Below are positions 413 through 16,437 of a stretch of DNA of 20,000 bases, piece after piece. Under the pieces are notes generated by a model that saw only the letters and a program-made list of their open reading frames with translations, was not told the DNA's origin and searched no databases. The stretch spans positions 54,764 to 74,763 of the forward strand of contig JWZX01003320.1 in NCBI GenBank assembly GCA_001275005.1, read 5' to 3'. Both the position numbers and the translations under genes were made by a program. This DNA comes from Chrysochromulina tobinii. Lineage: Eukaryota. How positions within the stretch are numbered: position 1 is the first letter of the stretch; each line of letters starts with the position of its first letter.

Positions 413-3400
413 ATGAGCATGTTCTCGCTGAGCATGCTCTCGAATCGCGGCCGTCCGAGCTCTTCGGACGCCGCCGAGATCGCAGGCTTGCCGTTCGCAG
501 CGGCCCTCAACGTCAGCCCCGGCGTGCCGTCCTCGTCGAAGCAACGTGCGCGAGCGTCCAGCCCTCCTAAGCCGCCGCCCGTCGCAGTAGCCAGCCCACC
601 GCGGCCGTCGACGCCGGACCAGCCGAGCCCGGCGGAGGCCTTCGCGAAGAAGTGGGAGGTGGAGCAGACCAAGAAGCAGATGCTTCTCGACGAGCTCGAG
701 CTGGTGCGCGCGCAAGTCTCCGAGTTGCTCGAAGACCAGCGGCGCAGCGAGCATCTGAATGCGACGCCGTCCGAGCACATCGTGCTGTCCGCTCACCACG
801 CCGGCGAGGCGCTCGCGCGCAGCCTCGCATGGTGCTGCGAATGGATGAGCGCCGTCCTCCGCGGATGCGTGGCCGGTGCCGCCGGCAGCCGCAGCCGGGC
901 GGCCCGCCCTCTCCATGCGCTGCCTCGCGATGACGAGGAGGACTCGGTGGCGGGGCGGGCGAGCTCGCTGCTGGGCGAGGAGGGCGCGAACGACACGCAC
1001 CTCGCCCGCAAGATGCGTCGGAGCGCGCCGGCGCGGGGCCTGGTGACGAAACCCGAGATTGCGTCCAAGGGCGGCGTGACGAAACCCGAGAGCGCATCCA
1101 AGGGCGGTGTGACGAAACCGAGCCCGAAGGGCGATCCGAAGCATGCGAGAGTTCCCGAGGATAACCCCGAGCTCGTGGCGGCGATGGGGCGTTGGTGCGC
1201 AGGCCACGTGTCCAAGCAGGTGCGTGCGATCTCGCTGCGATCTCGCTGCGATCTCGACACGATTGCAAAACCTCGACACGCCTCGACTCGCCTCTGCATG
1301 CCTCGAGTTACCTCGACTTGCCTCGAATGGCCTCGAATGGCCTCGAGTTGCCTCGCAGGCGTGGGATTTGAGCATGCCACTGATTGCATGCTGATTGCAT
1401 GCTGATTGCATGCGGATTGCATGCTGATTGCATGCTGATTGCATGCTGATTGCATGTCGCAGGCGTGGGATCTGAGCATGCTCGTCCTCATCATCTACTC
1501 TTGCGTCGTGATTCCCTTCCGGATCGGCATGTCAGTACCGAACCCGACGGGCGTCAGCCAGGTGCGATCTGGCCCGAGATTGCGATCTGGCCCGAGATTG
1601 CACCTCTGATCGCACCTCCTTGCACCTCCTTGCGCCCGATGGTCCTCTCTGTGTGTGTGCCACGTGGCTTGCCATGTGACCCAAGTGACACGCGTGCCCC
1701 TCTGCAGACGATCGAGCGTTGCATCACGCTCCTATGATTGCCTCTGATGACCTCTGATGACCTCTGATTGCCTCTGATGACCGCTGATTGCCTCTGCAGA
1801 CGATCGAGCGGTGCATCACGCTCCTCTTCATCGTCGACCTGTGCCTCAACTTCAACACCGCCTACCTCGACGGATCGCACTTCATCGTCGACCGGTCCCT
1901 GATCGCGCGTAACTACCTCATGGGATGGTTCTGGATCGATCTCGCCTCTTCGATCCCCTTCGAGGACCTTCTACACCTCTTAGTGCTCCTCACCGGCAAC
2001 GAGGAGGCGTTCTCCGGTCAGCCAGATTGCTCTCAGCCTGCTCTGATGACCTCTGATGACCTCTGATGACCTCTTTTGACCTCTGTTGACCTCTGATGAC
2101 CTCTGAGTGCCCTCTGAGTGCCCTCAGAATCCTCTGAGTGGGACCGATGCCCCTTCCTTATTAGGCAACCCGGCGGCCCTCAAACTCCTTCGTGGCCTAC
2201 GCCTTGTGCGACTGCTGCGACTGCTCAAGCTGCTCAAGCTGCAGCAGCACATCGATACACTCGAGGACTATCTCGAGGTTGACCTCGGCTTCTTACAGGT
2301 GCCACTGATTGCCACTGATGGCCACTGATTGCCACTCGAGGACTATCTCGAGGTTGACCTCGGCTTCTTACAGGTGCCACTGATTGCCACTGATTGCCAC
2401 TGATTGCCCCTCGAGGACTATCTCGAGGTTGACCTCGGCTTCTTACAGGTGCCACTGATTGCCACTGATTGCCCCTCGAGGACTATCTCGAGGTTGACCT
2501 CGGCTCCTTACAGGTGCCACTGATTGCCACTGATTGCCACTTGATTGCCACTTGTTTGCACCTCGATGACATCTGAGTGCGCCCGAGTGCATCTAAGTAC
2601 GCCTGAGTGCATCTGAGTGCGCCTGCTAGCACCCCTCGATTGCATGCGCATGCAGATCCTCAAGATCGTCACTGATTGCCACTGATTGCATGCGCGTGCA
2701 GATCCTCAAGATGGTCACTGATTGCCACTGATTGCCACTGATTGCATGCGCGTGCAGATCCTCAAGATGGTCGCTATGATCCTCTACCTGATGCATATCC
2801 TCGGCTGCTTTTGGTTCTTCGTCGCGACCAACTCGGGCTATGAGGGCACGCTCGAGGCCGGTGACACGTGGCTCGCGAGGTACCACTGATTGCAACTGAT
2901 TGCCACTTGAGTGCACTGATTGCCACTCGATGCCGGTGACACGTGGCTCGCGAGGTACGATGGCGGCTCAGGGCTCACCATCCCCCTCGGCATGCAAGTG
3001 CTCACCACGACGCCCGGACTCCCCACAGGTACGATGGCGGCTCAGGGCTCACCGCCCCTCTCGAGACCCAGTACCTCTTCTCCATCTACTGGGCGCTGAT
3101 GACGCTCACCACCGTCGGCTACGGCGACATCACACCCGCCAACGACTCCGAGCGCCTGTAATCACTGATTGCCACTGATTGCCTCATGAGCGCCTGTAAT
3201 CACACCCGCCAACGACTCCGAGCGCCTGTAATCACTGATTGCCACTGATTGCCTCATGAGCGCCTGTAATCACACCCGCCAACGACTCCGAACGCCTGTG
3301 CGCTTCCCGCGCTCTGCCCTCGAGATCGCCTCCTGATCGCATCGAGATCGCATCGAGATCGCATCGTGATTGCATCGAGATCGCATCGAGATCGCATCGT

Positions 3401-5848
3401 GATCGCATCGTGATTGCATCGAGATTGCCTCATGGTGTCCCCCTTGCGCGCTCGGCTCCCTGCTGCTCGGCGCGCTCGGCCTCGGCATGCAAGTGCTCAC
3501 CACGACGCCCCCCCCTCTTCCCCACAGGTACGCGCTCGGCTCCCTGCTGCTCGGCGCGCTCGTCTTCGGCTTCATGCTCTCGTCGATCGGCGGCTTAGTC
3601 AAGGGCCTCGATAAGGAGAATATCCGGCTGCAGCACAAGATGGATGAGGTCAAGGAGTTCACCAGATGGCATAAGATGCCTAGTGACCTCTCCTCGCGCG
3701 TGCGCAAGTAGGAGGATTGCTGATGACCTCTAATGACCACTGATGACCTCTGATGACCTCTGATGACCGCTGATGACCTCTGATTGCCTCCCTCATCAAG
3801 CACGCTTGGCTCGGGCGGGGCCACGAATGACCACAGAGTGCACCTCCGACGACCTCTTGAGTGCTTCCGTTGGCCCCCTCCTCCTCCCCAGGTACTACGA
3901 GTTCTATTACCACTGATGACCACTGATGACCTCTGATGACGTCTGATTACCTCCCTCCTCAGGTACTACGAGTTCTACTACCAGAAGCTCTCCTCGTTGC
4001 CCGAGGAGGTGATCCTAGCGCGCGCGCCCAGCTCGCCCTCGGCATGCAAGTGCTCACCACGACGCCCCCCCACCACCCTCTTCCCCACAGGTGATCCTAG
4101 CCGACATGTCGCCCGAGCTCAAGGCATGCAAGTGCTCACCACGGCGCCCCCTCACCCTCTTCCCCACAGGTGATCCTAGCCGACATGTCGCCCGAGCTCA
4201 AGGCCGACGTCATGGCACACCTGCTCGCGCGCTCGGTCAGCCAGATCCCTTTCTTTTACGTGCCCGTGCTCGGCGCGAGCGAGCCCGCGCCGCCCGACAC
4301 GGCGTTCCAAATGGCCATCTACCCGCTCTTGAAGCCCGTCGTGCGCGAGGCGAAGGAGATCATCATCTCGCGCGGAGATGCACTCTCCGACCTGACCTTC
4401 GTGCACAAGGGCACGGTGCATGCCTACGGCCTCTGGAACGCCGCACGCCAGCTACGGCCACCCCATATTAGGCAACCCGAGTGGGCAGGCGGCCATCCCA
4501 TCTTAGGCAGCGGGTCGGCGCTCAGGACGACGCGGCGTGTCATCGGCCCGCGGACCGCGCGGGTGCTCGCCGACGAGGAGGAGCTCGCGCTCAGGACGGC
4601 GCCCAGCTTCGGCCGGCCGTTGCTGACGCTGGCCGAAACGGGCGCGCTGCTGAGCGAGGGCGCGCTCACGGAGACGCCGACGAAGATGGCGTACATGGCG
4701 GTGCTGCGGACCGAACTGGTGCTGATGGCGCGGTCAGACCTGCTCAAAGTCCTGGACGACTTCCCACACGCGCGTTATGAGATTGGAGCCTTCATCAAGG
4801 CGGAGATGCTCGAGCGCCTCAAGATGACCTACTTCTCCCTCCGCTTCCAGGTGACGAACCCGTGCTGATGGAGCCCTGATTGCGGTGACGAACCTTTGCG
4901 TGGAGCCCTGATTGCGGTGACGAACCTTCGCGCGGAGCCTGGATGAAGCCTTTGGTTGGCCAACGGCCCGATTGCCCCACTCATCACCTCTGATGACGAC
5001 CTCTGATGATGACGATGATGACCTCTGATTGCCCCCCCCCCCCTAAACAGGTGCGCGAGGCGTACGTCATCTGTGACGAGGAGGTCCGCGCGGTCCGCCT
5101 CGCGTACCGCGAGAACAGCTCCAATTACGTCGCCAGCTTCAACCTCCTCCAGATGGGCGCCTTGCGTCTCCAGATGGGATGGCTCAAACGGCAGATCCAG
5201 AAGCTGGCGTCCACGCCCGCGACGGCGCTCGTCCCGTGCATCTATGGAGCGCCGCCGCGGGCGCCGCCTGCTCCTGCGGCGCATCGGCCGCGCACGCCGA
5301 CGAAGCTCACCATCGAAGCTCTGGACCGCCTAGTGGGGAGTGGAATGGGCGTCATGTTGGGCGTCGCTCCCTTTGGTGGCGCCATGTTGGGCATCGCTCC
5401 CTTTGGTGGCGCGCTCCTCCCGCGGATCCACTCGCCACGCACTAGCCAAGCGGACGCGGCCGCTGCGCTGTCTGCAACGGACCGAGGGCGCATCGACGAG
5501 ATGACGAAACTCGCGGGCAGCGGCAGCGGCAGCGGCAGCGCGCGCCAACTGGTCGGGAGCGCGAGGTCGCAATCTGGGAGCGCGAGGTCGCTATCTGGGA
5601 GCGCGAGGTCGTACTCTGCGCGGGCGGCGGTGCGCGATCTCTCCGTGCGAGATCGCAGCCCGGCGCGCCTGCAGAGGGTCGACGAGGAGGAGGCGGCCCT
5701 CGAGCGCAGCGCCGTCCCGGGCGGTGCTGGGGCCGTCGCCGCCTCCTCGGAGGCGCTACACGGCTTGCGACAGGTCGAGGCCAAGCTAGGAGACGACGAG
5801 GCTCGCCTCGCTCTCTTGAACGAGAAGCTCGCGTCCCTGCTCCGGTAG
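413..5848 (+). CDS. voltage-gated K+ channel of the CNBD superfamily (KCNH/HCN/CNG-like), 10 exons, about 1070 aa
   Basis: Exons 413-1219, 1463-1561, 1800-2016, 2165-2298, 2758-2879, 3029-3157, 3528-3707, 3963-4008, 4170-4850, 5051-5848; all introns GT-AG, phases consistent, 3213 nt in total. Product has S1 (AWDLSMLVLIIYSCVVIPFRIG), S2 (FIVDLCLNFNTAY), S3 (YLMGWFWIDLASSIPFE), S4 (LLRGLRLVRLLRLLKLLK), S5 (MHILGCFWF), pore YWALMTLTTVGYGDITP, S6, C-linker (LSSRVRKYYEFYY...ILADMSPELKADV), a CNBD-like domain (LTFVHKGTV) and a C-terminal coiled coil. Confidence 0.93.
1378..1456 (+). repeat. intronic minisatellite (CTGATTGCATG)n
   Basis: About 7 tandem 11-mers between two copies of the exon-2 acceptor/start. 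Confidence 0.9.
2042..2140 (+). repeat. intronic minisatellite (CTCTGATGAC)n grading into (CTCTGAGTGCC)n
   Basis: Tandem 10/11-mers in intron 3; the same 10-mer family recurs at about 1735-1797, 3720-3790, 3911-3950 and 4987-5031. Confidence 0.9.
2260..2550 (+). repeat. 4x tandem copy of the exon-4 3' end plus donor plus (CACTGATTGC)n
   Basis: Unit CTCGAGGACTATCTCGAGGTTGACCTCGGCTTCTTACAG|GTGCCACTGATTGCC starts at 2260, 2335, 2410 and 2475 (periods 75, 75, 65). Confidence 0.95.
3129..3299 (+). repeat. 3x copy of the exon-6 3' end and donor (70-bp period)
   Basis: ATCACACCCGCCAACGACTCCGA(G/A)CGCCTGT at 3129, 3199 and 3269. Confidence 0.92.
3335..3428 (+). repeat. intronic minisatellite (GATCGCATCGA)n
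   Basis: About 8 degenerate 11-mers in intron 6. Confidence 0.85.
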
Positions 5849-6319
5849 CGCGCCGTCGTGGGCGCACCTGCCCCTTTTGCTCGCCGCAGGGCGTCGGAAC
5901 ACGTGGCAACACTGCCGGTCCGATCGTGCAACACTGCCAGTGTTGCCAGTGTTGCACGACGTCCGATCGGATCTGGCAACACTGCCGGTCCGATCGTGCT
6001 TTCGGGAGGGTGGCCCGCCCGCCCGCCCCTTTTCAGAACGCCACCTCTACCGTCCGTGCTGTGACACCTCTGCCATGTGGGTTCGGGATCTGCAGGATCG
6101 ATTGTGTGTTATAGGGTTAGGGCTTAGGGACCCGCGCACGTGATCGTGTAAGACCTGCTCACGTGATCAGCTGATGATATGTGCAATTCCAACTCGTTTC
6201 TCAGGACGGGAGGCAGGTGCGGCCGAGCTCAGAGCTTCCCAGATCCCAGGACGGAGCGCTACGTAAGCAGCAGTAAGGGACGTCGAGATACTAAGGCGGT
6301 CTCCGCTCTAGCTCGTACG
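5751..6319 (+). repeat. copy 1 of a local segmental duplication (channel C-terminus plus 3' flank)
   Basis: Aligns by eye with 7105-7712 from AGGCGCTACACGGCTTG to CTAGCTCGTACG, with small indels. Confidence 0.93.
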
Positions 6320-7104: not shown

Positions 7105-7712
7105 AGGCGCTACACGGCTTGCGACAGGTCGAGGCCAAGCTAGGAGACGAGGAGGCTCGCCTCGCTCTCTTGAACGAGAAGCTCGCGTCCCTGCTCGACC
7201 GGTATTACTCCGGTAGCGCGCCGTCGTGGGCGCACCAGCCCCTTTTGCTCACCGCAGGGCGTCGGACCTGGCAACACTGCCTAAACACTGCCGGTCCGAT
7301 CGTGCAACGCTGCCAGTGTTGCAGTGTTGCACGACGTCCGAGCGGATCTGGCAACACTGCTGGGTGCTGGTCCGATCGTGCGCCGTGCTTTCGGGAGGGT
7401 GGCCCGCCCGCCCGCCCCTTTTCAGAACGCCACCTCTACCGTCCGTGCTGTGACACTTCTGCCATGTGGGTTCGGGATCTGCAGGATCGATTGTGTGTTA
7501 TAGGGTTAGGGCTTAGGGACCCGCGCACGTGATCGTGTAAGACCCGCTCACGTGATCAGCTAATGATACATGTACATGTATGTGCAATTCCAACTCGTTT
7601 CTCAGGACGGGAGGCAGGTGCGGCCGAGCTCAGAGCTTCCCAGATCCCAGGACGGAGCGCGCTGCGTAAGCAGTAAGGGACGACATAGGCGGTCTCCGCT
7701 CTAGCTCGTACG
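7105..7712 (+). repeat. copy 2 of the segmental duplication (fragment of the channel 3' end)
   Basis: Re-encodes ALHGLRQVEAKLGDEEARLALLNEKLASLL; an insertion near 7197-7212 shifts the original TAG out of frame. Confidence 0.93.
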
Positions 7713-8206
7713 GGGTATTCGGTTGCGCTGGTTTAGGTACTTGTGAGGTCAAGGGTGTGAGGTACTTGTGTGTTTCGACTAATTAGCTTGCTTGCTTGCC
7801 GCGCGCGCCTTCATTTCGCCGACCGCCTTCGAGCAGGCGCGGGGAGGCGCTCTGGGAGCGGGTGAAGGCAGGGTCGGGTTCGCTGGGGGCGGCCTCTTCT
7901 GAGTCGGCCGCGGGGAGCGGTCGGCTCCGGGCCTGCGGCTGTTGAGTCGGCCGCGGTTTCGGTCGTCGCGCTGACGTGCGGGTTGTGTGTTGTTGGTGGG
8001 TTTGGATGGTTGTGAGGTTCGTCTGTGTGGTCCGTGTGCCTTTGTGCGCCCGCGTGCCCCGTGTGCCCGTGTGTGTGTCCCGGCTCCCCCCGTTGTCTTT
8101 TTACCGGTACCGGTGCAGTTCCGGTCCGGTTTTGAAACCAATGCTCGCACGGCCTCCCATTACGCACAAGAATGGGGGATCACTCCTTGGGGGCGTCAAA
8201 CACGGC

Positions 8207-11200
8207 ATGGTCTTGCCCACGTTCTTGGCGTTGATGAGCGTGCCCGACCCACTGATGAGCGTGGCTCCACCGCCCCCGTTCATCATCGAGCCCATGCTGC
8301 CGCCGCGCGCAAAGCCCCCCAAGCTGGCCCCCACATCCCACGAGTGGGCCGTCCAGGCGGGCGGTGGATCGAGTGAGGCCGCAGGCCGCGCAATTGCGAC
8401 CGATGGCGCAGGAGGGGCACTCGTGACCGGTCACTTCACGACTGCAGGTTTATTCGGCTCCAAGTCGCTCCTAAGCCGCGGCGGGGAAGACGCTTTCGTG
8501 ATGCACGTGACGGCGTCAGGGGACATCGACTGGGCCGTCCAGGCAGGTGGCACGGGTATCAATGACGAAGCGCGCAGCTCGGGCATCGCGCACGATGGCG
8601 CGGGGGGCGCTTTCGTGACGGGAGTTTTCAGTGGCACGGCATCGTTCGGCGATACGTCACTCACAAGCCGCGGCTCTTTCGACGCTTTCGTGCTCCACGT
8701 GACGGCGTCGGGGCTCATCGACTGGGCCGTCCAGGCGGGAGGCGCGTCCTACGACCAAGGCTTCGGCATCGCGCACGATGGCACGAACGGTGGTGCTTTC
8801 GTGACGGGCACCTTCGCTGGCGAAGCGCACTTCGGCTCGTACGCCGTGACAAGCCGCGGCGTGTACGCCGTATTTGTGATGCACGTGACGGCGTCGGGCG
8901 TCATCGACTGGGTCGTCCAGGCGGGCGGCAAGGGCACTGATAATGTAGGCCGCGGCATCGCACACGACGGCTCAGGGGGTGCTCTTGTGACGGGTACATT
9001 CGATGGCAGCGCTTCACAACCATGCTTCTCCTCGACTTCATCAGCATGCCATGCATGGTTCGGCTCGACCACGCTCACAACCCATGGCGATCTCGACACC
9101 TTTGTGATGCACGTGACGGCGTCGGGGGCCATCGACTGGGCCGTCACGGCGGGTACCTCGGCCCTTGATTGGGAGTGCATTTTCTGCGAAGTTTATGTCC
9201 TTGGCGTAGGCATCGCGCACGATGGCGCGGGGGGTGCTCTCGTGACGGGCGCATTCAAGGGTGAGGCATTCTTCGGTTCGAAATCGCTTAAAAGCCGCGG
9301 CATATACGACGACGTTTTCGTGATGCACGTGACGGCGTCGGGGGCCGTCGACTGGGCCGTCCAGGCGGGCGGCGCGTCCTACGACCAAGGCAACGGCATC
9401 GCGCACGATGGCGCGAACGGTGGTGCTTTCGTGACGGGGTGCTTCGCTGGCGAAGCACACTTCGGCTCGTACGCCGTGACAAGCCGCGGCGTGCACTCCG
9501 TATTTGTGATGCACGTGACGGCGTCGGGCGTCATCGACTGGGTCGTCCAGGCGGGCGGCATGGGCACTGATAACTTCGGTCGCGGCATCGCACACGATGG
9601 CTCGGGGGGTGCTCTCGTGACGGGTACCTTCGATGGCAGCGCTTCACAACCATGCTTCTCCTCGACTTCATCAGCATGCCAAGCATGGTTCGGCTCGACC
9701 ACGCTCGCAACCCATGGCGATCTCGACACCTTTGTGATGCACGTGACGGCGTCGGGGGTCATCGACTGGGCCGTCACGGCGGGTACCTCGACCCTTGATT
9801 GGGAGTGCATTCTCTGCGAAGTTTATGTCCTTGGCGTAGGCATCGCGCACGATGGCGCGGGGGGTGCTCTCGTGACGGGCGCATTCAAGGGCGAGGCATT
9901 CTTCGGTTCGAAATCACTCAAAAGCCGCGGCGGCATATACGACGACGTCTTCGTGATGCACGTGACGGCGTCGGGGGCCATCGACTGGGCCGTCCAGGCG
10001 GGCGGCGCGTCCTACGACCAAGGCAACGGCATCGCGCACGACGGCGCGGGCGGTGCTTTCGTGACGGGTGATTTCATGGGCGAAGCATCGTTCGGCTCGA
10101 TGTCGCTCGTAAGCCTCGGCGGTTCCGACGCTTTCGTGATGCACGTGACATCCTCGGGGGCCATCGATTGGGCCGTCCAGCTGGGTGGTGCGGCCGTCGC
10201 ACCTCCCTTCGACGTAGCATATGGCATCGCGTACGATGACACGCTCGAAGCAGGTGCTCTCGTGACGGGCGCTTTCAGGGGCGAGGCATCGTTCGGCTCG
10301 AACTCACTTGCAAACCGTGGCGCTGCTGCTTCTTGCTTTGTTGCGTCTCTAGAGCCGCCGCCCCCAGAGGAGCCTCCACTGGCTACGACATGCAACGGTG
10401 GATTCGTCTCGAGTCGAGTCGAGTCGCTCGCTTTGGGTCGAGTGGTTTGCAATGCTGAGCCGGGGTCTCGATCTTGGACCCCCGGGGGTGGCCAGGAGGC
10501 ATGTGAGGCGAGGGGCTGCTGCTGGGTGCCAGTGCAGATGGGCGATCCACCGGGGACCCCGGGGTGCTTCTACCTGGTCGCACCGTCGCCCCCACCGACA
10601 CGGCCACAAGAAGAGGTGCCCTCTGATGTGGTGTCCTCCAATTGGGCCGTCGAGGTGGAAGGCACCGCTTCCTCTTCAGGCAACGGCATCGCGCACGACG
10701 GCGCGGGGGGCGCTTTCGTGACGGGAGTTTTCAGTGGCACGGCATCGTTTGGCGATACGTCACTCACAAGCCGCGGCTCTTTCGACGTTTTCGTGCTCCA
10801 CGTGACGGCGTCGGGGCTCATCGACTGGGCCGTCCAGGCGGGAGGCGCGTCCTACGACTACGACCAAGGCTACGGCATCGCACACGATGGCGCGAACGGT
10901 GGTGCTTTCGTGACGGGTACCTTCGCTGGCGAAGCGCACTTCGGCTCGTACGCCGTGACAAGCCGCGGCGTGTACGCCCGTATTTGTGATGCACGTGACG
11001 GCGTCGGGCGTCATCGACTGGGTCGTCCAAGCGGGCGGCATGGGCACTGATAATGTAGGCCGCGGCATCGCACACGACGGCTCGGGGGGTGCTCTCGTGA
11101 CGGGTACCTTCGATGGCAACGGTGACGAAGCATGGTTCGGCTCGATACCGCTCACATGCCGCGGCCGCTCGAACGACGCTTTCGTGATGCACGTGACGGC

Positions 11201-13254
11201 GTCGGGGGTCATCGACTGGGTCGTCCAGGCGGGCGCCGTGGCCCCGGGTCCAGCATACAGTTCCACTTATGTCGGAGGCCAAGGCCTCGCGCACGATGGC
11301 GCGGGGGGTGCTCTCGTGACGGGCGTGTTCAAGGGCGAAGCATTCTTCGGCTCGACGTATGAATGGAACGGAACACACTCTAAACCAGTTGCTGGATCAA
11401 GACTCAAGAGCCACAGCCAGTACGACTCCGATATGTTCGTCATGCACGTGACGGCGTTGGGGGCCGTCGATTGGGTCGTCCAGGCGGGCGGGTGGGGGTC
11501 AACCCATGGTTCCAACATCGCGCATGATGGCGTCGGCGGTGCTTTCGTGACGGGCGACTTCATGGGCACCGCATCGTTCGGCTCGACGTCGATAGTGAAC
11601 CTCGGCGGCTCCAACACGTTCGTAATGCACGTGACGGCGTCGGGCATCATTGACTGGGCCGTCCGGGCGGGCAGCTCGGATGCGGGGGATCAGGCTTTCG
11701 GATACGAGGGCTCAGGCCGTGGCATCGCATACGATGGCACGGGAGGTGCTTTCGTGACGGGTCATTTTAGGGGCGAGGCATTGTTCGGCTCGACGTCGTT
11801 TGTGAGTCGCGACAGTGACGATGCTTCCTCGTACGCGATGCACGTGACGGCGTCGGGCGTCATCGACTGGGCCTTGCAGCTGGGCGGCGCGGCAGATGAC
11901 ATTGGCCTCAGCATTGCGAGCGACGGCGCGGGGGGTGTTCTTGTGACGGGCCATTTCACAGGCGAAGGAACGTTCGGCTCGAAGACACTTTCAAACCGTG
12001 GGGGGCTCACGGCCTGCTTTGTGGTTTCTCTCGTGCCGACGCTACGTCCACCGGTGCCTGCTCGTCGATTGCCACCTCCCGCGCTGGCTGTCCAGGAAGT
12101 CAGCTCTGGCGTTAGCATCCTACTGGTTGGCGCCGCGCTCGCCTTCACGGCCGCGGTCCTCTTCGCACTCATGCTCTGGTGAGCCCCGCAGCGTCCTTGA
12201 AGCAGAATGACCACGCTTCCTTGGCTGCACTGACCAATTGTGTTTGTCTGTTGGGCGTGCGCACAGGAACGCGCGCCGGCGCAACGCGCAGCTCGCGAGG
12301 GAGAAGGAGCGGCTCACGTACGAGCGCACGTTTGCCCTCCATGCGCTTCACTTCCAGCGCCCTCCTCTCCCCTTCGACGCACAATACAGTGATCACGTCT
12401 CCCACTACTCGAGCCCAGATCACATAGACCACCCGGGACCGATGGCACCGGCCGCCTTCGCTCCGGCCGCCTCCGCTCCGGCCGCCTCCGCTCCGGCCGC
12501 TCGGGCTGCAGGGGCGCCGGCTGGGGATGAGGCGTTCGAGGTCGAGATGTTGCCGATCGGCGAGCCATGCGACACCGCAGGCCGCGTCAGCAGCCCTTGG
12601 CGTCTGATCTTCCCTTCCCGAGTCAAAGCGTCGAGAGTCGAGGGGGGCTTTCTGGACAGTGCAGCCCTCTTGGCCGCTGCGGGGGGCGCTGTGCCGCCCT
12701 CCATCCAAAGCTTGCCGGCCGTTGTCACCGTAGCAGGGCCGCCAGTGCCTTCGTGCGCCGCGGCATCACCCTCGCGGGCTGTAGCGGCATCACCCTCGCG
12801 GGCCGCGGCACTCTCAACTATGGACCGCCTGGATCACATCATAGCGCAGCCTGGCAATCGGCACGGGTCTCGGCATGGCTCTATCGGCGGCGGAAGCAGC
12901 TACGGCACGGAAAGTGAGTGTTCTAGGTACGCAGCTGCGATGGCGATGGCCAGCACAGCACAATCGCTGCCGCAGACACCGCCGCAGTCGCCGCCTCAGA
13001 CGCCGCTGCAGACGCCGCAGTCGCTCGCCCGGGCGGATGCCCTCGAGCGGACGCTGCGATTGTGCGGCTTATTGCCCGAGCCTAGTGCGGCGGAGGAAGC
13101 TTCGCTCCCTGAGGCGCTGGAGGGTCCGGCCTCTCCGAATGGCGACGACGGAGCGGCCTCCCCATGGCCTCCCTATGCCAGCCTGCCACGTGGCTTGACG
13201 GAGCGCGCGCGCCTCGCGGGCCTCGCGGGCCACTCGTTAGGCGCGGGCACCTGA
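8207..13254 (+). CDS. large single-pass membrane protein: 10 + 7 SBBP-like beta-propeller repeats, trefoil-like domain, TM helix, low-complexity cytoplasmic tail (about 1650 aa; contains a +1 frameshift)
   Basis: Joins ORFs 7976-11050, 10986-12182 and 12238-13254. Likely start ATG 8207 (GGCATGG, short hydrophobic MVLPTFLALMS; ATG 8141 is an alternative). Repeats of about 60-85 aa: WAVQAGG..GIAHDGAGGAxVTG.F.G.A.FG...DAFVMHVTASG.ID. CEARGCCW...PGCFY at about 10448-10573. Extra C at 10977-10979 versus the paralogous repeat at 8861-8880. TM ILLVGAALAFTAAVLFALML. The GTGAG..CACAG intron 12179-12266 (88 nt, CTGAC branch-like motif near 12230) restores W-NARRRNAQLAREKER in frame. Confidence 0.85.
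8696..9958 (+). repeat. intragenic tandem duplication of three propeller blades (630/633-bp period)
   Basis: Near-identical blocks start at 8696 and 9326, with a partial third at 9959; antisense shadow ORFs 8749-9180 and 9379-9810 are offset by exactly 630. Confidence 0.93.
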
Positions 13255-13469
13255 TTGCCTCCCTCATCGGGCACCTGATTGCACTCATCATCACGGGGGC
13301 TGAAAAAGCATGTAAAAATACTGAACATTTAAGAGCCCACTCGGGAATCGCACTCCCAACCGCCATTGGTCGTACTGTAGCTCGTACTGTAGCCGACTGG
13401 TCATTCGTTTTTGAACACGTAAGCATGTGCACCCGACACGAAAAAACCAGTCATGAGACATGACCGGCG

Positions 13470-16437
13470 TTAATCTAGTTCTAGATCGGTGTCCCCTGGA
13501 GCCTGAACCATTCCGATGCCATTCTCTGAGTCATCTTCGTAGCAGAAGACTTGGCCTGCCTGGGCCCGTCCATGTTTGCCCGTGGCAGGTCGCGGGAGCA
13601 TATAGGCCACGAGCGAACGTGCCTTACGTCGTGCGGAAGAGGTCTCTGGCGAGGTGCCCTTGACACCCTCGATCAGCGTTAAGTGGACACTATCTCCGTT
13701 GTCGTCGTCGAGGTTGCAAGCGTCGACACCGGCTACACCGCGCGGCCCCGCGAGTGTTGCCTGGGGCTTCCCGGCATCTCGAGGCGGTCCCGCGGATGCC
13801 TCCATGAGCGGCGCCTCCCAACTGTAAGTCCTCTTGAGGATGCGTAAAGGGTACCAAGGGTCGATCACGGCGCCGACAGCGAGCAGCGCCCCGATCACGG
13901 CGCCGACAGCGAGCAGTGCCCGCGGCAGCGCCAACCTTCCGGGCAGTCGTGGAGGAGGAGTAGGAGGAGGCGTAGGAGGAGGCTCCGACAGCCGCGCGGC
14001 TGGCGCCCGCAGCACATGCTGCGGTGATTCCGGCGAGGGATATGCTGAGGGGGGCGGCGCCGACGGCGGCATCTGCCACGGGATCTCCGGTGTTGGGAGA
14101 GGTGGAGGTGGGGAGGGGTCGGGCAGCGGGGGGTGGGAGGGCGGCAACGGCTTCGGCTGTGACGGCAAGGAAGGCTCATCTGCCTTTACATCTGCCTGGC
14201 GGAAGGCCTTATGGGCGGCCCACACGGGCAGTGGCATATCAACGAGCCTCGCGAGAGCCTTCCAACGATCTGAACTACTCGGCTGCTCATCGGCGAGGAG
14301 GTTGTCGAGCAGCAGGTCTATTCACAGAAAGAGGCTCGAACGCGCAAGACAGAGAGGTGAGCGAGGACCAATAAGCGAGGACGCGCTGGAGGTGACACTG
14401 GCGGGGCACGTGCTCGCGCGGCCAGGCCAAGGCCAGGCCATGGCACAGATTCGCTGCAGGGTCATGGGCAGCTCGAGAACGGGTTCGAGACGCCTGCCGC
14501 AGGTTACGCGAGGGCGGCACGGTGCACATGGTTAGAGCCATCTCGGTCACATAGGACCACGCCGCCCCGAGGCCGTATTGCGACGCTGCCCAGCCCACGC
14601 TCGCAACGCTTGGCGACTGCACCGCCCGCCTCTCGAGCTGCTCGAGGCTCGCGCCGCCTGTGTCGATCGGATAGATCTGCGACAAGCTGCGCTCCGTCAT
14701 CCAATAAAACGGGGCGGCATGCACGCCGTGATGCTCTTGTGCGCGCTGCCGGTACCACTCGACGCTGTTCTGCACAGTGAGCACCACCCGGGCGTCCTCG
14801 TGCGCCGCATACAGGAACGGCAAGAGCTGCGCGATGGGCACGTCGGCGACCGCGTCGAGGTCCTTGAGCGCGCCACAGTAGTCAAAGGTGGCAAGCTCAG
14901 AAGGTTTGAGGGCCCAAATCGCCCTTCGGAAGCTCGTCCATGCGTGCTCTCGCCGGGTGCACTCAGCGATGCCCATGCTGTCCGGGCACAGGAACTCGTC
15001 CCAGTGGCCCACGGCCAGACCGAGCTGCTGTACCGCCCACGCATAGGTACCCGTGCCCGTCGCGCCCTGGCCAGCCAGCAGGACGAGCGGACGGCGGCGG
15101 CCGGCACATGAGGAGGCACCGGGCGTGGCCCCTGCCGCCAGGGGGGCAAGGTAGCGCAGCCAGGTGGCACCGGCTGCAAGCATAGTCGGGAGAGGCGGGT
15201 GCACCTTTTGGCCTCGGTCGGAGCGGTCGTGCGCCTGCCAAAACTCATTGTAGCTGAGCCAGAAGGAGACGCAATCGCCACTGGCATGCACATTTCTCGT
15301 GATGCACTCAGGCGGCGCTCCGCGGAAGGGGCGCGTGTCTGCCCACCTAGGCAGAGGCACGTCCGCCAGTTGCGCGAAGCGGCGCCAGCGCTCCGCATCC
15401 ATCTGACGGCGAACGACGTCTGCGTCGGTGCGGTGGTCCGAGAAGACATTGGTGATGATGAGCCGATCGGGCGGCACAAGGCACACGACTAAGGCGAGCT
15501 CTGCAAAGTAACTCCACGAGGCCGCCTTGATACCCATAACCTGCACGTTATGGCCGACGCTGCCTCTGCCGGCATACGTATCACTGATCGACGCGCCGCT
15601 GATCCAGAAGAAAGGTGCCATGTCCGTGCCGCCCTTCCACTGTACCCGTCGAGGGTACCACTCCTCACTTTTTCGAACAGTGAGCACCACCCGGGCGTCC
15701 TCGTGCGCCGCATACAGGAACGGCAAGAGCTGCGGGATGGGCACGTCGGCGATCGCGTCGAGGTCCTTGAGCGCGCCACAGTAGTCAAAGGTGGCAAGCT
15801 CAGACGGTTTGAGGGCCCAAATCGCCCTTCGGAAGCTCGTCCATGCGTGCTCGCGCCGGGTGCACTCAGCGATGCCCATGCTGTCCGGGCACAGGAACTC
15901 GTCCCAGTGGCCTGTAGCGAGCCCCAACTCCCGCGCAGCCCAGGCATACGTCGACGTTCCAGTCTTGCCATCACCCGCCATGATCAGCAGCGGGCGCGTA
16001 CGGCCGGGGCATGTCGACTTTGGTGGCGTGAGCTGATCGAGCAGCGTCGCGCAGGGCAGAGACGTGTTTGGCAGCCGAGGCGGCAGCGGGGGCAGTCCTG
16101 GTGCTGGTGGTGGCGACGACGGCGGGGGCAGTGATGGAAGGGGAAACGGTGACAGCGACGGCAGCAGCGACGGCTGTGCAATAGGAGATGCAGTGGATGC
16201 GGACGGCAAAGGAGATGAGGATGGAGAGGACGCAGGAGGGAAATGGAATGGCGGCGGTAATGTTGGTAGAGATCCGGTACTTGCTGACGGTTGACTGACG
16301 CTGCGTACCACCACCTCATAATAAAGGAGTGCTGATGCAAATCCCATGCTTACCGGCATCAGAAAGATGCAGAGCAGCAACGTGAGAGCTCGAATCAGGG
16401 TTCCTGGGTATGCTACGGTGGATGGACCGTGGCCCAT
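13470..16437 (-). CDS. membrane-anchored protein with two tandem P-loop sulfotransferase-like domains (Sulfotransfer_4-type), 2 exons, about 925 aa
   Basis: Exons 16437-14508 and 14317-13470, intron 14318-14507 (GTAACC..AATAG). Splicing yields VPPSHLLLDNLL..RWKALARLVDMPLPVWA, matching domain 1 VPPDRLIITNVF..RWRRFAQLADVPLPRWA. Motifs MAGDGKTGTSTYAWAARELG, DAIADVP, DARVVLTVRKSEEW. N-terminal hydrophobic anchor, Pro/Ser stems, second hydrophobic segment near the C-terminus. Start codon uncertain. Confidence 0.8.
14774..15912. repeat. near-identical 236-bp patch shared by the two sulfotransferase-like domains (14774-15009 and 15677-15912)
   Basis: 903-bp offset; 4 mismatches counted by eye. Confidence 0.92.

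What the first reader, a model, noticed from the sequence alone, without database searches (positions are those of the whole stretch)
1220..5050. Introns built from duplicated copies of their own splice sites and flanking exon ends
Seen: 8 of 9 channel introns contain copies of their junctions. I1: acceptor plus exon start 1353-1377/1457-1481. I2: 1699-1733/1791-1825. I4: donor x4 and acceptor x3 (AG ending 2655, 2701, 2757). I5: junction copy. I6: donor x3 plus exon-start copy 3447-3478. I7: 3889-3912/3960-3983. I8: 4007-4019/4089-4125/4168-4204. I9: donor GGTGACGAACC at 4850, 4884, 4916. Copies are separated by minisatellite or cassette filler, like 11-40-bp target-site duplications. Only the outermost donor/acceptor pair gives the intact channel; several decoy acceptors run quickly into TGA from the repeats. 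Known: Introner elements of Micromonas and Aureococcus create introns with short target-site duplications and inverted termini. Inference: the long, variable duplications, lack of evident terminal inverted repeats and focus on splice junctions point to a different, junction-targeted process.
Basis: partly seen in the sequence, partly recalled or inferred. Interest (0 to 1): 0.88.

Follow-up and report, generated by a model that had tools for sequence, protein, structure and literature searches.

The report
Half-introns copied to make new introns
In an alga (likely Chrysochromulina), pieces of existing introns sit in genes beside an 11-54-base copy of the landing site, stacking extra splice sites at old introns and likely creating new ones; they are likely copied in by a DNA-repair template switch, which would be an unusual, ongoing source of introns.

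Summary
The copies are real. Seven of nine introns of this 1070-aa cyclic-nucleotide-gated-type K+ channel gene hold a copy of a flanking exon end; I9 repeats only its own start. RNA contigs join the outermost pair in seven introns; all 22 other pairings truncate the protein. Another allele lacks the I7 and I8 copies. The process is not mainly junction-targeted. A ~45-nt branch-point/acceptor module is flanked by a long direct duplication at 59 of 76 sites elsewhere (control 0.3%), and 70 of 79 anchored sites lie away from any existing acceptor. One 80-nt unit interrupts a 483-codon frame in one allele and is absent in another. A mirror-image donor module exists. Modules share flank and tail with particular other copies (10 of 18 pairs, 0.38 expected), and filler joints show microhomology. 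Best reading: half-introns are copied from other introns by microhomology template switching, with 11-54-nt target duplication; splicing filters the survivors. It works like an Introner but lacks inverted ends and a fixed duplication length; no enzyme was identified. The scan earlier noted similar long-duplication introns in two other protists.

The parts
413..5848 (+). Host gene: CNG/EAG-type K+ channel, 10 exons (413-1219, 1463-1561, 1800-2016, 2165-2298, 2758-2879, 3029-3157, 3528-3707, 3963-4008, 4170-4850, 5051-5848), 1070 aa
   Evidence: Intact frame; Pfam Ion_trans_2 1e-9, Ion_trans and cNMP_binding below cut-off on single exons; 47% to P0001; RNA joints
1220..1462 (+). I1: decoy acceptor plus exon start 1353-1377, 11-bp filler 1380-1456, used acceptor 1462
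   Evidence: spliced in 4 of 4 RNA runs
1562..1799 (+). I2: decoy acceptor plus exon start 1699-1733, 10-bp filler, used acceptor 1799
   Evidence: spliced in 4 of 4 RNA runs
2017..2164 (+). I3: 10-bp filler intron without an exon copy
   Evidence: score 8, background; spliced in 4 of 4
2299..2757 (+). I4: donors at 2299, 2374, 2449, 2514 (three stacked GT-AG units of 75, 75, 65 nt); acceptors at 2655, 2701, 2757
   Evidence: spliced joint not displayed; unspliced RNA contig 2512-2745
2880..3028 (+). I5: two abutting GT-AG units, 2880-2954 (filler plus exon-end copy) and 2955-3028 (exon-start copy plus module); 2926-2989 copies the intron-less junction
   Evidence: spliced in 4 of 4; one DNA contig spans 2743-3008
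2989..3028 (+). Acceptor module, copy 1 (core, branch-point-like CTCAC, C-rich tract, CAG)
   Evidence: shares 11 nt of 5' flank and 0.80 tract similarity with locus L004
3158..3527 (+). I6: donors at 3158, 3228, 3298; 11-bp filler 3320-3425; exon-start copy 3447-3478; module 3484-3527
   Evidence: spliced in 1 of 4; allele L056 has a different acceptor copy here
3708..3962 (+). I7: filler intron; the unit 3892-3962 (exon-start copy, filler, acceptor) is a 71-nt GT-AG segment
   Evidence: spliced in 3 of 4; 71 nt absent from allele L056
4009..4169 (+). I8: two abutting GT-AG units (82 and 79 nt), each an exon-start copy plus module (cores at 4041 and 4123)
   Evidence: 82 nt absent from allele L056; donor used in RNA, acceptor copy not resolvable
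4851..5050 (+). I9: intron start repeated three times (32-34 nt period), no exon copy
   Evidence: spliced in 4 of 4
4460..4474 (+). 15-nt in-frame insert in exon 9 resembling the I3 acceptor end, with a 4-nt duplication; not spliced
   Evidence: absent from L056; RNA contigs of 4 of 4 runs cross it unspliced

Best explanation
Short pieces of existing introns, a ~45-nt branch-point/acceptor half, a ~55-nt donor half, or a run of 10-11-bp filler ending in a splice site, lie in genes beside an 11-54-nt direct copy of the landing site, and are likely copied in from other introns by a microhomology-guided template switch during DNA repair or replication. Inferred steps: synthesis passes an exonic GT by 11-54 nt, jumps at a short match onto another intron, copies its 3' half through the AG, then returns to the GT. 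The first GT becomes the donor and the module supplies the branch point and acceptor, so splicing restores the exon exactly (mirror image for donor halves at AG). Where the GT or AG is an existing splice site, or the unit re-duplicates locally, junction copies stack up, as in this gene. Survival is likely filtered by splicing: units that form introns alone are 65 nt or longer. Stacks are predicted to be removed by outermost pairing or, where units abut as AG|GT, stepwise. Shown: anatomy, dispersal, polymorphism, outermost splicing in seven introns. Inferred: gain polarity, DNA template, enzyme, stepwise splicing.
For: 59 of 76 scorable module sites have a flanking duplication scoring 12 or more, against 0.33% of 1500 mismatched pairs. 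Scarless GT-AG excision is possible in the filler's sense for 61 of 88 module events (antisense 5) and 43 of 105 minisatellite events (antisense 11), against 31 and 23 of 183 events without filler. 70 of 79 anchored acceptor sites lie away from an existing acceptor; the copy begins GT in 61 of 70; copy length 11-54, median 26. Donor module: 15 of 17 follow AG; 12 have an exon-end copy, 10 ending in AG. Empty sites: L073 lacks the 80-nt unit of L068, and both give a 483-codon frame once it is removed; 14 of 15 listed relatives read through that site; L003 lacks the 81-nt unit of L017; L056 lacks the I7 and I8 copies. Parent carry-over: of 18 pairs sharing 7 or more nt just 5' of the core, 10 have tract similarity 0.75 or more (0.38 expected, p=0.0002); in three groups the shared flank is one member's own exon sequence (L074, L077, L070), with a 10-nt match at the L084 joint. 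Filler joints: microhomology 1.80 vs 0.41 nt at entry (n=41) and 1.64 vs 0.45 at exit (n=25), p=0.0002. Modules cut short on the 3' side occur (L002, L011, L091, L112), so the AG end is not fixed. Size floor: 0 of 59 new-intron-type events under 65 nt, against 12 of 134 others (p=0.019).
Against: The overall flank-versus-tract correlation is not significant (Mantel r=0.067, p=0.11); the signal lies in the tail only. 15 of 41 entry and 10 of 25 exit joints have no microhomology. 'Away from an acceptor' does not prove coding exon: removal lengthens open frames (p=0.0009), but antisense frames are open as often (45 of 58 each) and codon bias did not separate the strands (p=0.07). Gain versus loss is not settled by allele pairs, because precise deletion between the two copies would also give an empty site; the read-through relatives were not shown to come from DNA. 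The donor module is nearly constant at its 5' end and some cores carry a 12-bp palindrome (22 of 212), which suits a transposon. Splicing of module units outside this gene was not tested. I4 splicing was not directly seen, and unspliced I4 contigs are present in RNA runs. Loci were chosen by the module, so frequencies are biased.
Confidence: 0.6

Rival explanations
1. The modules are tiny non-autonomous transposons (Introner-like, possibly Replitron/HUH-mobilised) that insert next to AG or GT with variable target duplications and fuzzy ends.
For: Replitron-1 inserts after RG with variable duplications and carries parental flank (PMC10288648, section read). The donor module follows RG at 16 of 17 sites, and 22 of 212 cores have a full 12-bp palindrome. 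A Replitron protein is reported at one C. tobinii locus.
Against: No terminal direct or inverted repeat is evident in the 17 donor modules printed. Acceptor halves, donor halves, 3'-cut pieces and pure filler all show the same build. Joints show microhomology. No transposase or RT family among 57 long frames scanned, a small sample. RG targeting is confounded with selection for AG.
Confidence: 0.2
2. The template is RNA: pre-mRNA or excised intron is reverse-transcribed at a DNA nick, giving an exact AG end, a ragged 5' end and a long target duplication.
For: Acceptor modules end exactly at the intron AG and are ragged at the 5' side, with linkers of up to 30 nt. Modules lie in the splicing sense. 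I5 holds a copy of the intron-less junction.
Against: Mirror-image donor halves have the exact end at the 5' side. 3'-cut modules exist. Sense bias and exact ends follow from selection. The I5 junction copy is explained by two abutting insertions at one AG|GT.
Confidence: 0.12
3. Only local slippage or tandem duplication, filtered by selection (Rogers-type AGGT duplication; staggered-break repair as in Daphnia).
For: The I4, I6 and I9 stacks and some tandem module units are simple head-to-tail repeats. Allele pairs differ in unit number.
Against: The module is foreign to the landing site: empty alleles lack it. It follows a filler-type acceptor at L070, and the base before GT is not G at 18 of 70 sites. 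It carries flanks of other loci. This rival explains part of the stacking, not the modules.
Confidence: 0.06
4. Assembly stutter.
For: Only short-read assemblies and contigs were seen.
Against: Copies differ by substitutions; read-derived contigs cross the joints and depth scales with copy number; the same build recurs in independent records with different alleles.
Confidence: 0.02

Closest known systems
Introners (Micromonas, Aureococcus, Symbiodinium, Polarella, Chrysochromulina MAG family; Gozashti et al. 2022, PMC9860276; Roy et al., bioRxiv 10.1101/2020.10.14.339549)
   Same: Dispersed short repeat that carries one splice site and takes the other from its target duplication; scarless new introns. 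A Chrysochromulina family without inverted ends is described (passages).
   Different: The duplications reported in the passages read are fixed at 3-8 nt (4 nt in Chrysochromulina); here they run 11-54 nt and form about a third of the intron. Only half the intron is shared between copies. Ends are ragged and carry parent flank. The published screen needs similarity at both intron ends and removes low-complexity families, so it would likely miss these.
Daphnia pulex neointrons from staggered double-strand-break repair (Li et al. 2014, PMC4202315)
   Same: Polymorphic new introns with an exon-end direct repeat, and secondary nested events that lengthen young introns (passages).
   Different: Repeats there are 4-12 bp. 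Here they are longer, and the insert is a recurring family of intron halves traceable to other introns.
Replitron-1 of Chlamydomonas (Craig 2023, PMC10288648)
   Same: Insertion after RG, variable target duplication, fuzzy end copied from the parent's flank, palindrome near an end (section read).
   Different: Replitrons are 0.9-3.6 kb with terminal direct repeats and a Rep transposase. These modules are 45-55 nt, show no terminal repeat, and come as complementary halves of an intron.
Intron gain by tandem genomic duplication of AGGT (review PMC3443670)
   Same: A duplicated exon segment supplies a splice site (passages).
   Different: A foreign module lies between the copies and supplies the second site, so AGGT is not required.
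MMBIR / polymerase-theta templated insertions (search listing only; mechanism recalled)
   Same: Short insert templated from elsewhere and joined at microhomology.
   Different: No listing seen describes them as a self-propagating source of introns.

Membership tests
Introner (Gozashti 2022 definition) | Many introns in unrelated genes share sequence | tested here: met
   81 site clusters from 147 matches; unrelated host frames nearby
Introner (Gozashti 2022 definition) | Similarity reaches both intron boundaries | tested here: not met
   One end is target-derived for 11-54 nt; criterion read
Introner (Gozashti 2022 definition) | Creates introns de novo in exons (empty-site alleles) | tested here: met
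   L068/L073, 80 nt in a 483-codon frame; polarity supported but not proven; splicing of that unit not tested
MITE-type Introner | Terminal inverted repeats | tested here: not met
   None evident among the 22 inverted pairs in the gene or in the module ends printed; judged by eye
MITE-type Introner | Short fixed-length target duplication | tested here: not met
   11-54 nt; 15-49 nt
Replitron | Oriented insertion after RG | tested here: inconclusive
   16 of 17 donor modules, confounded with splice-site selection; acceptor modules sit before GT
Replitron | Short terminal direct repeats | tested here: not met
   Not evident in 17 donor modules, judged by eye
Replitron | Fuzzy end from the parent's flank and variable duplication (Replitron-1 only) | tested here: met
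   (acceptor modules)
Replitron | Rep HUH transposase partner | not testable with these tools
   No genome is held for this window
Break-repair neointrons (Daphnia type) | Exon-end direct repeat of 4-12 bp | tested here: not met
   Median 26 nt; repeats under 11 nt were below my detection limit
Break-repair neointrons (Daphnia type) | Segregating introns with nested secondary events | tested here: met
Recursive (zero-length exon) splicing | Stepwise intermediates at an internal AG|GT | not testable with these tools
   Anatomy fits 8 of 16 segments; only contigs, no raw RNA reads

The most novel reading that the evidence does not exclude
A transposase-free chain reaction: any young intron serves as repair template for the next, handing on half of itself plus a scrap of its own host exon, so introns breed introns genome-wide. 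Repeat hits stack 65-90-nt mini-introns with zero-length exons that are removed stepwise.
Probability: 0.3. Interest if true: 0.92.

Novelty: new variant of a known kind. Interest (0 to 1): 0.8.

Why it matters
How new spliceosomal introns arise is a long-standing question, and most mass gains are credited to transposons with fixed ends. Here gain appears to be segregating among alleles 1-3% apart, parent and daughter copies can be paired, and the build would escape the standard Introner screen. If the organism is the culturable alga it appears to be, mechanism and rate are testable by mutation accumulation. The stacks of near-identical splice sites are also a natural test of how a spliceosome chooses among exact decoys.

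Tried and rejected
No whole genome is held, so a genome-wide count and a transposase search were not possible. I suspected an extra GC-AG intron at 4430-4507; rejected, since RNA contigs of 4 of 4 runs cross it and one spans 4175-4847. An snRNA or other known RNA as template: Rfam gave one sub-threshold snoRNA match on filler (20 bits against 41). The viral collection gave 1 match. A first empty-site probe for L073 failed on allele differences and was redone with a shorter probe. The global Mantel test was not significant. The negative correlation of copy length with the rest of the unit (rho -0.67) was set aside as partly built into the boundary call. The coding-frame test was weak in this GC-rich DNA. 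Homolog searches gave no organism names; names came. The I4 and I8 joints were hidden by table limits in both read layouts. Read et al. 2013 was not held. Nine literature searches listed no paper on this build. The supplement of PMC9860276 was cut when stored; in the part held, the two named Chrysochromulina genomes appear only in the input table and the module core was not found. The unseen part and the authors' online sequence files could bear on novelty.

Full report
1. The gene. Ten exons between 413 and 5848 give an intact 1070-aa frame with nine GT-AG introns. Single exons match Ion_trans_2 (1e-9) and, below cut-off, Ion_trans and cNMP_binding. The spliced product aligns to P0001 at 47% over 920 columns with no gap at the I4 or I8 junction. 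The organism is likely a Chrysochromulina of the tobinii/parva group: of 10 proteins from module-bearing loci, 7 were in the collection and 4 of their 90% clusters list named C. tobinii or C. parva members. The window itself is tied to those loci by L072 and L122, which match it at 99.9-100%.

2. The observation. All listed copies are at the stated places, 96-100% alike. Seven of nine introns score 16-30 against their own exon ends; other introns' exon ends reach at most 10 (72 pairings) and 0 of 594 exon-interior pieces reach 12. I9 repeats only its start and I3 has no copy. Eight outermost pairings are intact and 22 of 22 others truncate. RNA contigs join the outermost pair for I1, I2, I3, I5, I9 (4 of 4 runs), I7 (3 of 4) and I6 (1 of 4). 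For I8 the donor is used, but the two acceptor copies cannot be told apart. For I4 no joint was displayed; an unspliced contig 2512-2745 has depth 23 beside 27-34 for spliced neighbours, and one contig joins the end of I4 to a spliced I5. Contig depth cannot measure RNA level, so poor I4 splicing is only a hint. Contigs of two DNA runs cross the copy-filler joints and depth scales with copy number. Ten DNA runs hold 0.80-0.89 of the sampled words. These may include the source sample.

3. The cassette is a dispersed half-intron. Four copies of one core (2989, 3484, 4041, 4123) each end in CCCCACAG followed by GT. With one viral-collection locus, 147 matches fell into 81 site clusters; 5 were dropped for short flanks, and 59 of 76 had a flanking direct duplication scoring 12 or more, against 0.33% of 1500 mismatched pairs. 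Type A: a copy of the next 11-54 exon bases starting at GT, a linker, core, C-rich tract and AG; 70 of 79 anchored sites have no acceptor signature upstream, and units are 65-93 nt. Type D is the mirror image: a near-constant GT-filler-core piece after AG (15 of 17), then a copy of the preceding 15-49 bases ending in AG (10 of the 12 with a copy). Minisatellite fillers behave alike. Among 376 non-redundant copy-spacer-copy events, scarless GT-AG removal is possible in the filler's sense for 61 of 88 module and 43 of 105 minisatellite events, against 5 and 11 in antisense, and 31 and 23 of 183 without filler.

4. It is segregating. Allele L056 of this gene lacks 71 nt in I7 and 82 nt in I8, has a different acceptor copy in I6, and lacks a 15-nt in-frame insert at 4460-4474. 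L073, 0.8% from L068, lacks a whole 80-nt type A unit; the empty allele and the spliced filled allele give the same 483-codon frame, the unspliced one 423. Fourteen of 15 listed relatives in one cluster read through that site and 6 of 7 in another read into the insert, which favours gain without proving it. L003 lacks the 81-nt unit of L017. By eye, 10 of 19 indels of 40 nt or more between diverged locus pairs are module-or-filler plus copy; the loci were selected by the module.

5. Mechanism. Of 18 site pairs sharing 7 or more nt directly 5' of the core, 10 also share the variable 3' tract (0.38 expected, p=0.0002). In three groups the shared flank is one member's own exon (L074, L077, L070) and is foreign to the others; L084 joins at a 10-nt match to L074's flank. 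The module in I5 pairs with L004 in the same test. The global correlation is not significant (p=0.11). Filler joints show excess microhomology at entry and exit (p=0.0002), though 15 of 41 and 10 of 25 show none. Modules cut short on either side occur, so the ends are not fixed. I infer a two-jump template switch onto another intron, with return to the target upstream of the first jump. Splicing then filters: none of 59 new-intron-type events is under 65 nt, against 12 of 134 others, and the branch-point-like A lies 19-34 nt from the AG in 76 of 79 type A sites. The coding status of the 70 sites is only weakly supported. Junction stacks follow when the target is an existing splice site or a unit re-duplicates locally. 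In this gene 8 of 16 stacked segments checked are GT-AG units of 65-82 nt abutting the next, so stepwise removal is possible; direct outermost pairing and decay of wrong isoforms are untested alternatives.

6. Comparison with what is known. It works like an Introner that takes one splice site from its target duplication (passages of bioRxiv 10.1101/2022.06.06.494994; PMC11282704 parts 1-2 of 5; bioRxiv 10.1101/2020.10.14.339549 passages; PMC12130899 passages). It fails the two-ended similarity criterion (PMC9860276 passages) and has no evident inverted ends or fixed duplication length. It shares polymorphism and nesting with Daphnia break-repair introns, whose repeats are 4-12 bp (PMC4202315 passages; lead from earlier scan notes). 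It shares variable duplication and parent carry-over with Replitron-1, without terminal repeats (PMC10288648 passages and section 9 part 1). The C. tobin genome paper mentions introns once, as one per gene on average (PMC4580454 passages). That Emiliania is rich in 10-11-bp repeats is recalled, not checked. Nine searches listed no description of this build; subscription papers and a cut supplement were not seen. Two earlier scan notes describe similar long-duplication introns in other protists; I did not test them.

7. Verdict. Observation confirmed; interpretation partly supported. New variant of a known kind, interest 0.8. Template switching 0.6, tiny transposon 0.2, RNA template 0.12, local slippage alone 0.06, artefact 0.02.

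Noticed in passing
window 4460-4474 and 4503-4510: A 15-nt in-frame insert resembling the I3 acceptor end (TTAG|GCA) lies in exon 9, with a second such motif at 4503. The insert is absent from allele L056 and is not spliced. It suggests that insertions also survive inside exons when in frame.
   Followed up: partly
window 2299-2757: I4, the most stacked intron, appears unspliced in RNA contigs at depth close to that of spliced neighbours; possibly a splicing cost of decoys.
   Followed up: partly
window 5751-6319 and 7105-7712: A ~600-nt duplicate (88% alike) of the channel gene's end and downstream DNA, each copy with a short telomere-like TTAGGG run (6113, 7502).
   Followed up: no
window 8006-12182 +: Long beta-propeller (SBBP) repeat gene with a trefoil domain. 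One extra C near 10970, relative to the repeat copy at 8861, shifts the frame: assembly error or broken allele.
   Followed up: partly
window 12179-12266 +: A likely ordinary 88-nt GT-AG intron without filler or exon copy in the next gene; removal keeps the frame. Not checked in RNA.
   Followed up: partly
window 14290-16437 -: 716-aa frame with two sulfotransferase domains from a recent internal duplication.
   Followed up: partly
window 13244-13292: Filler units with a short duplication at the end of a gene, outside any evident intron.
   Followed up: no
L002 (minus strand, 7609-7757), L012, L036, L077: Donor modules whose copied exon end finishes in CACAG or CTACAG give a full intron with the acceptor module's tail. 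This suggests the acceptor halves arose from such donor-type introns.
   Followed up: no
L056 1-95: A different acceptor duplication at I6, with another breakpoint than in the window: likely a parallel hit at the same junction.
   Followed up: partly
L013 near 6258: A 590-nt insertion relative to L057 with a long direct repeat at its ends, unlike the modules.
   Followed up: no
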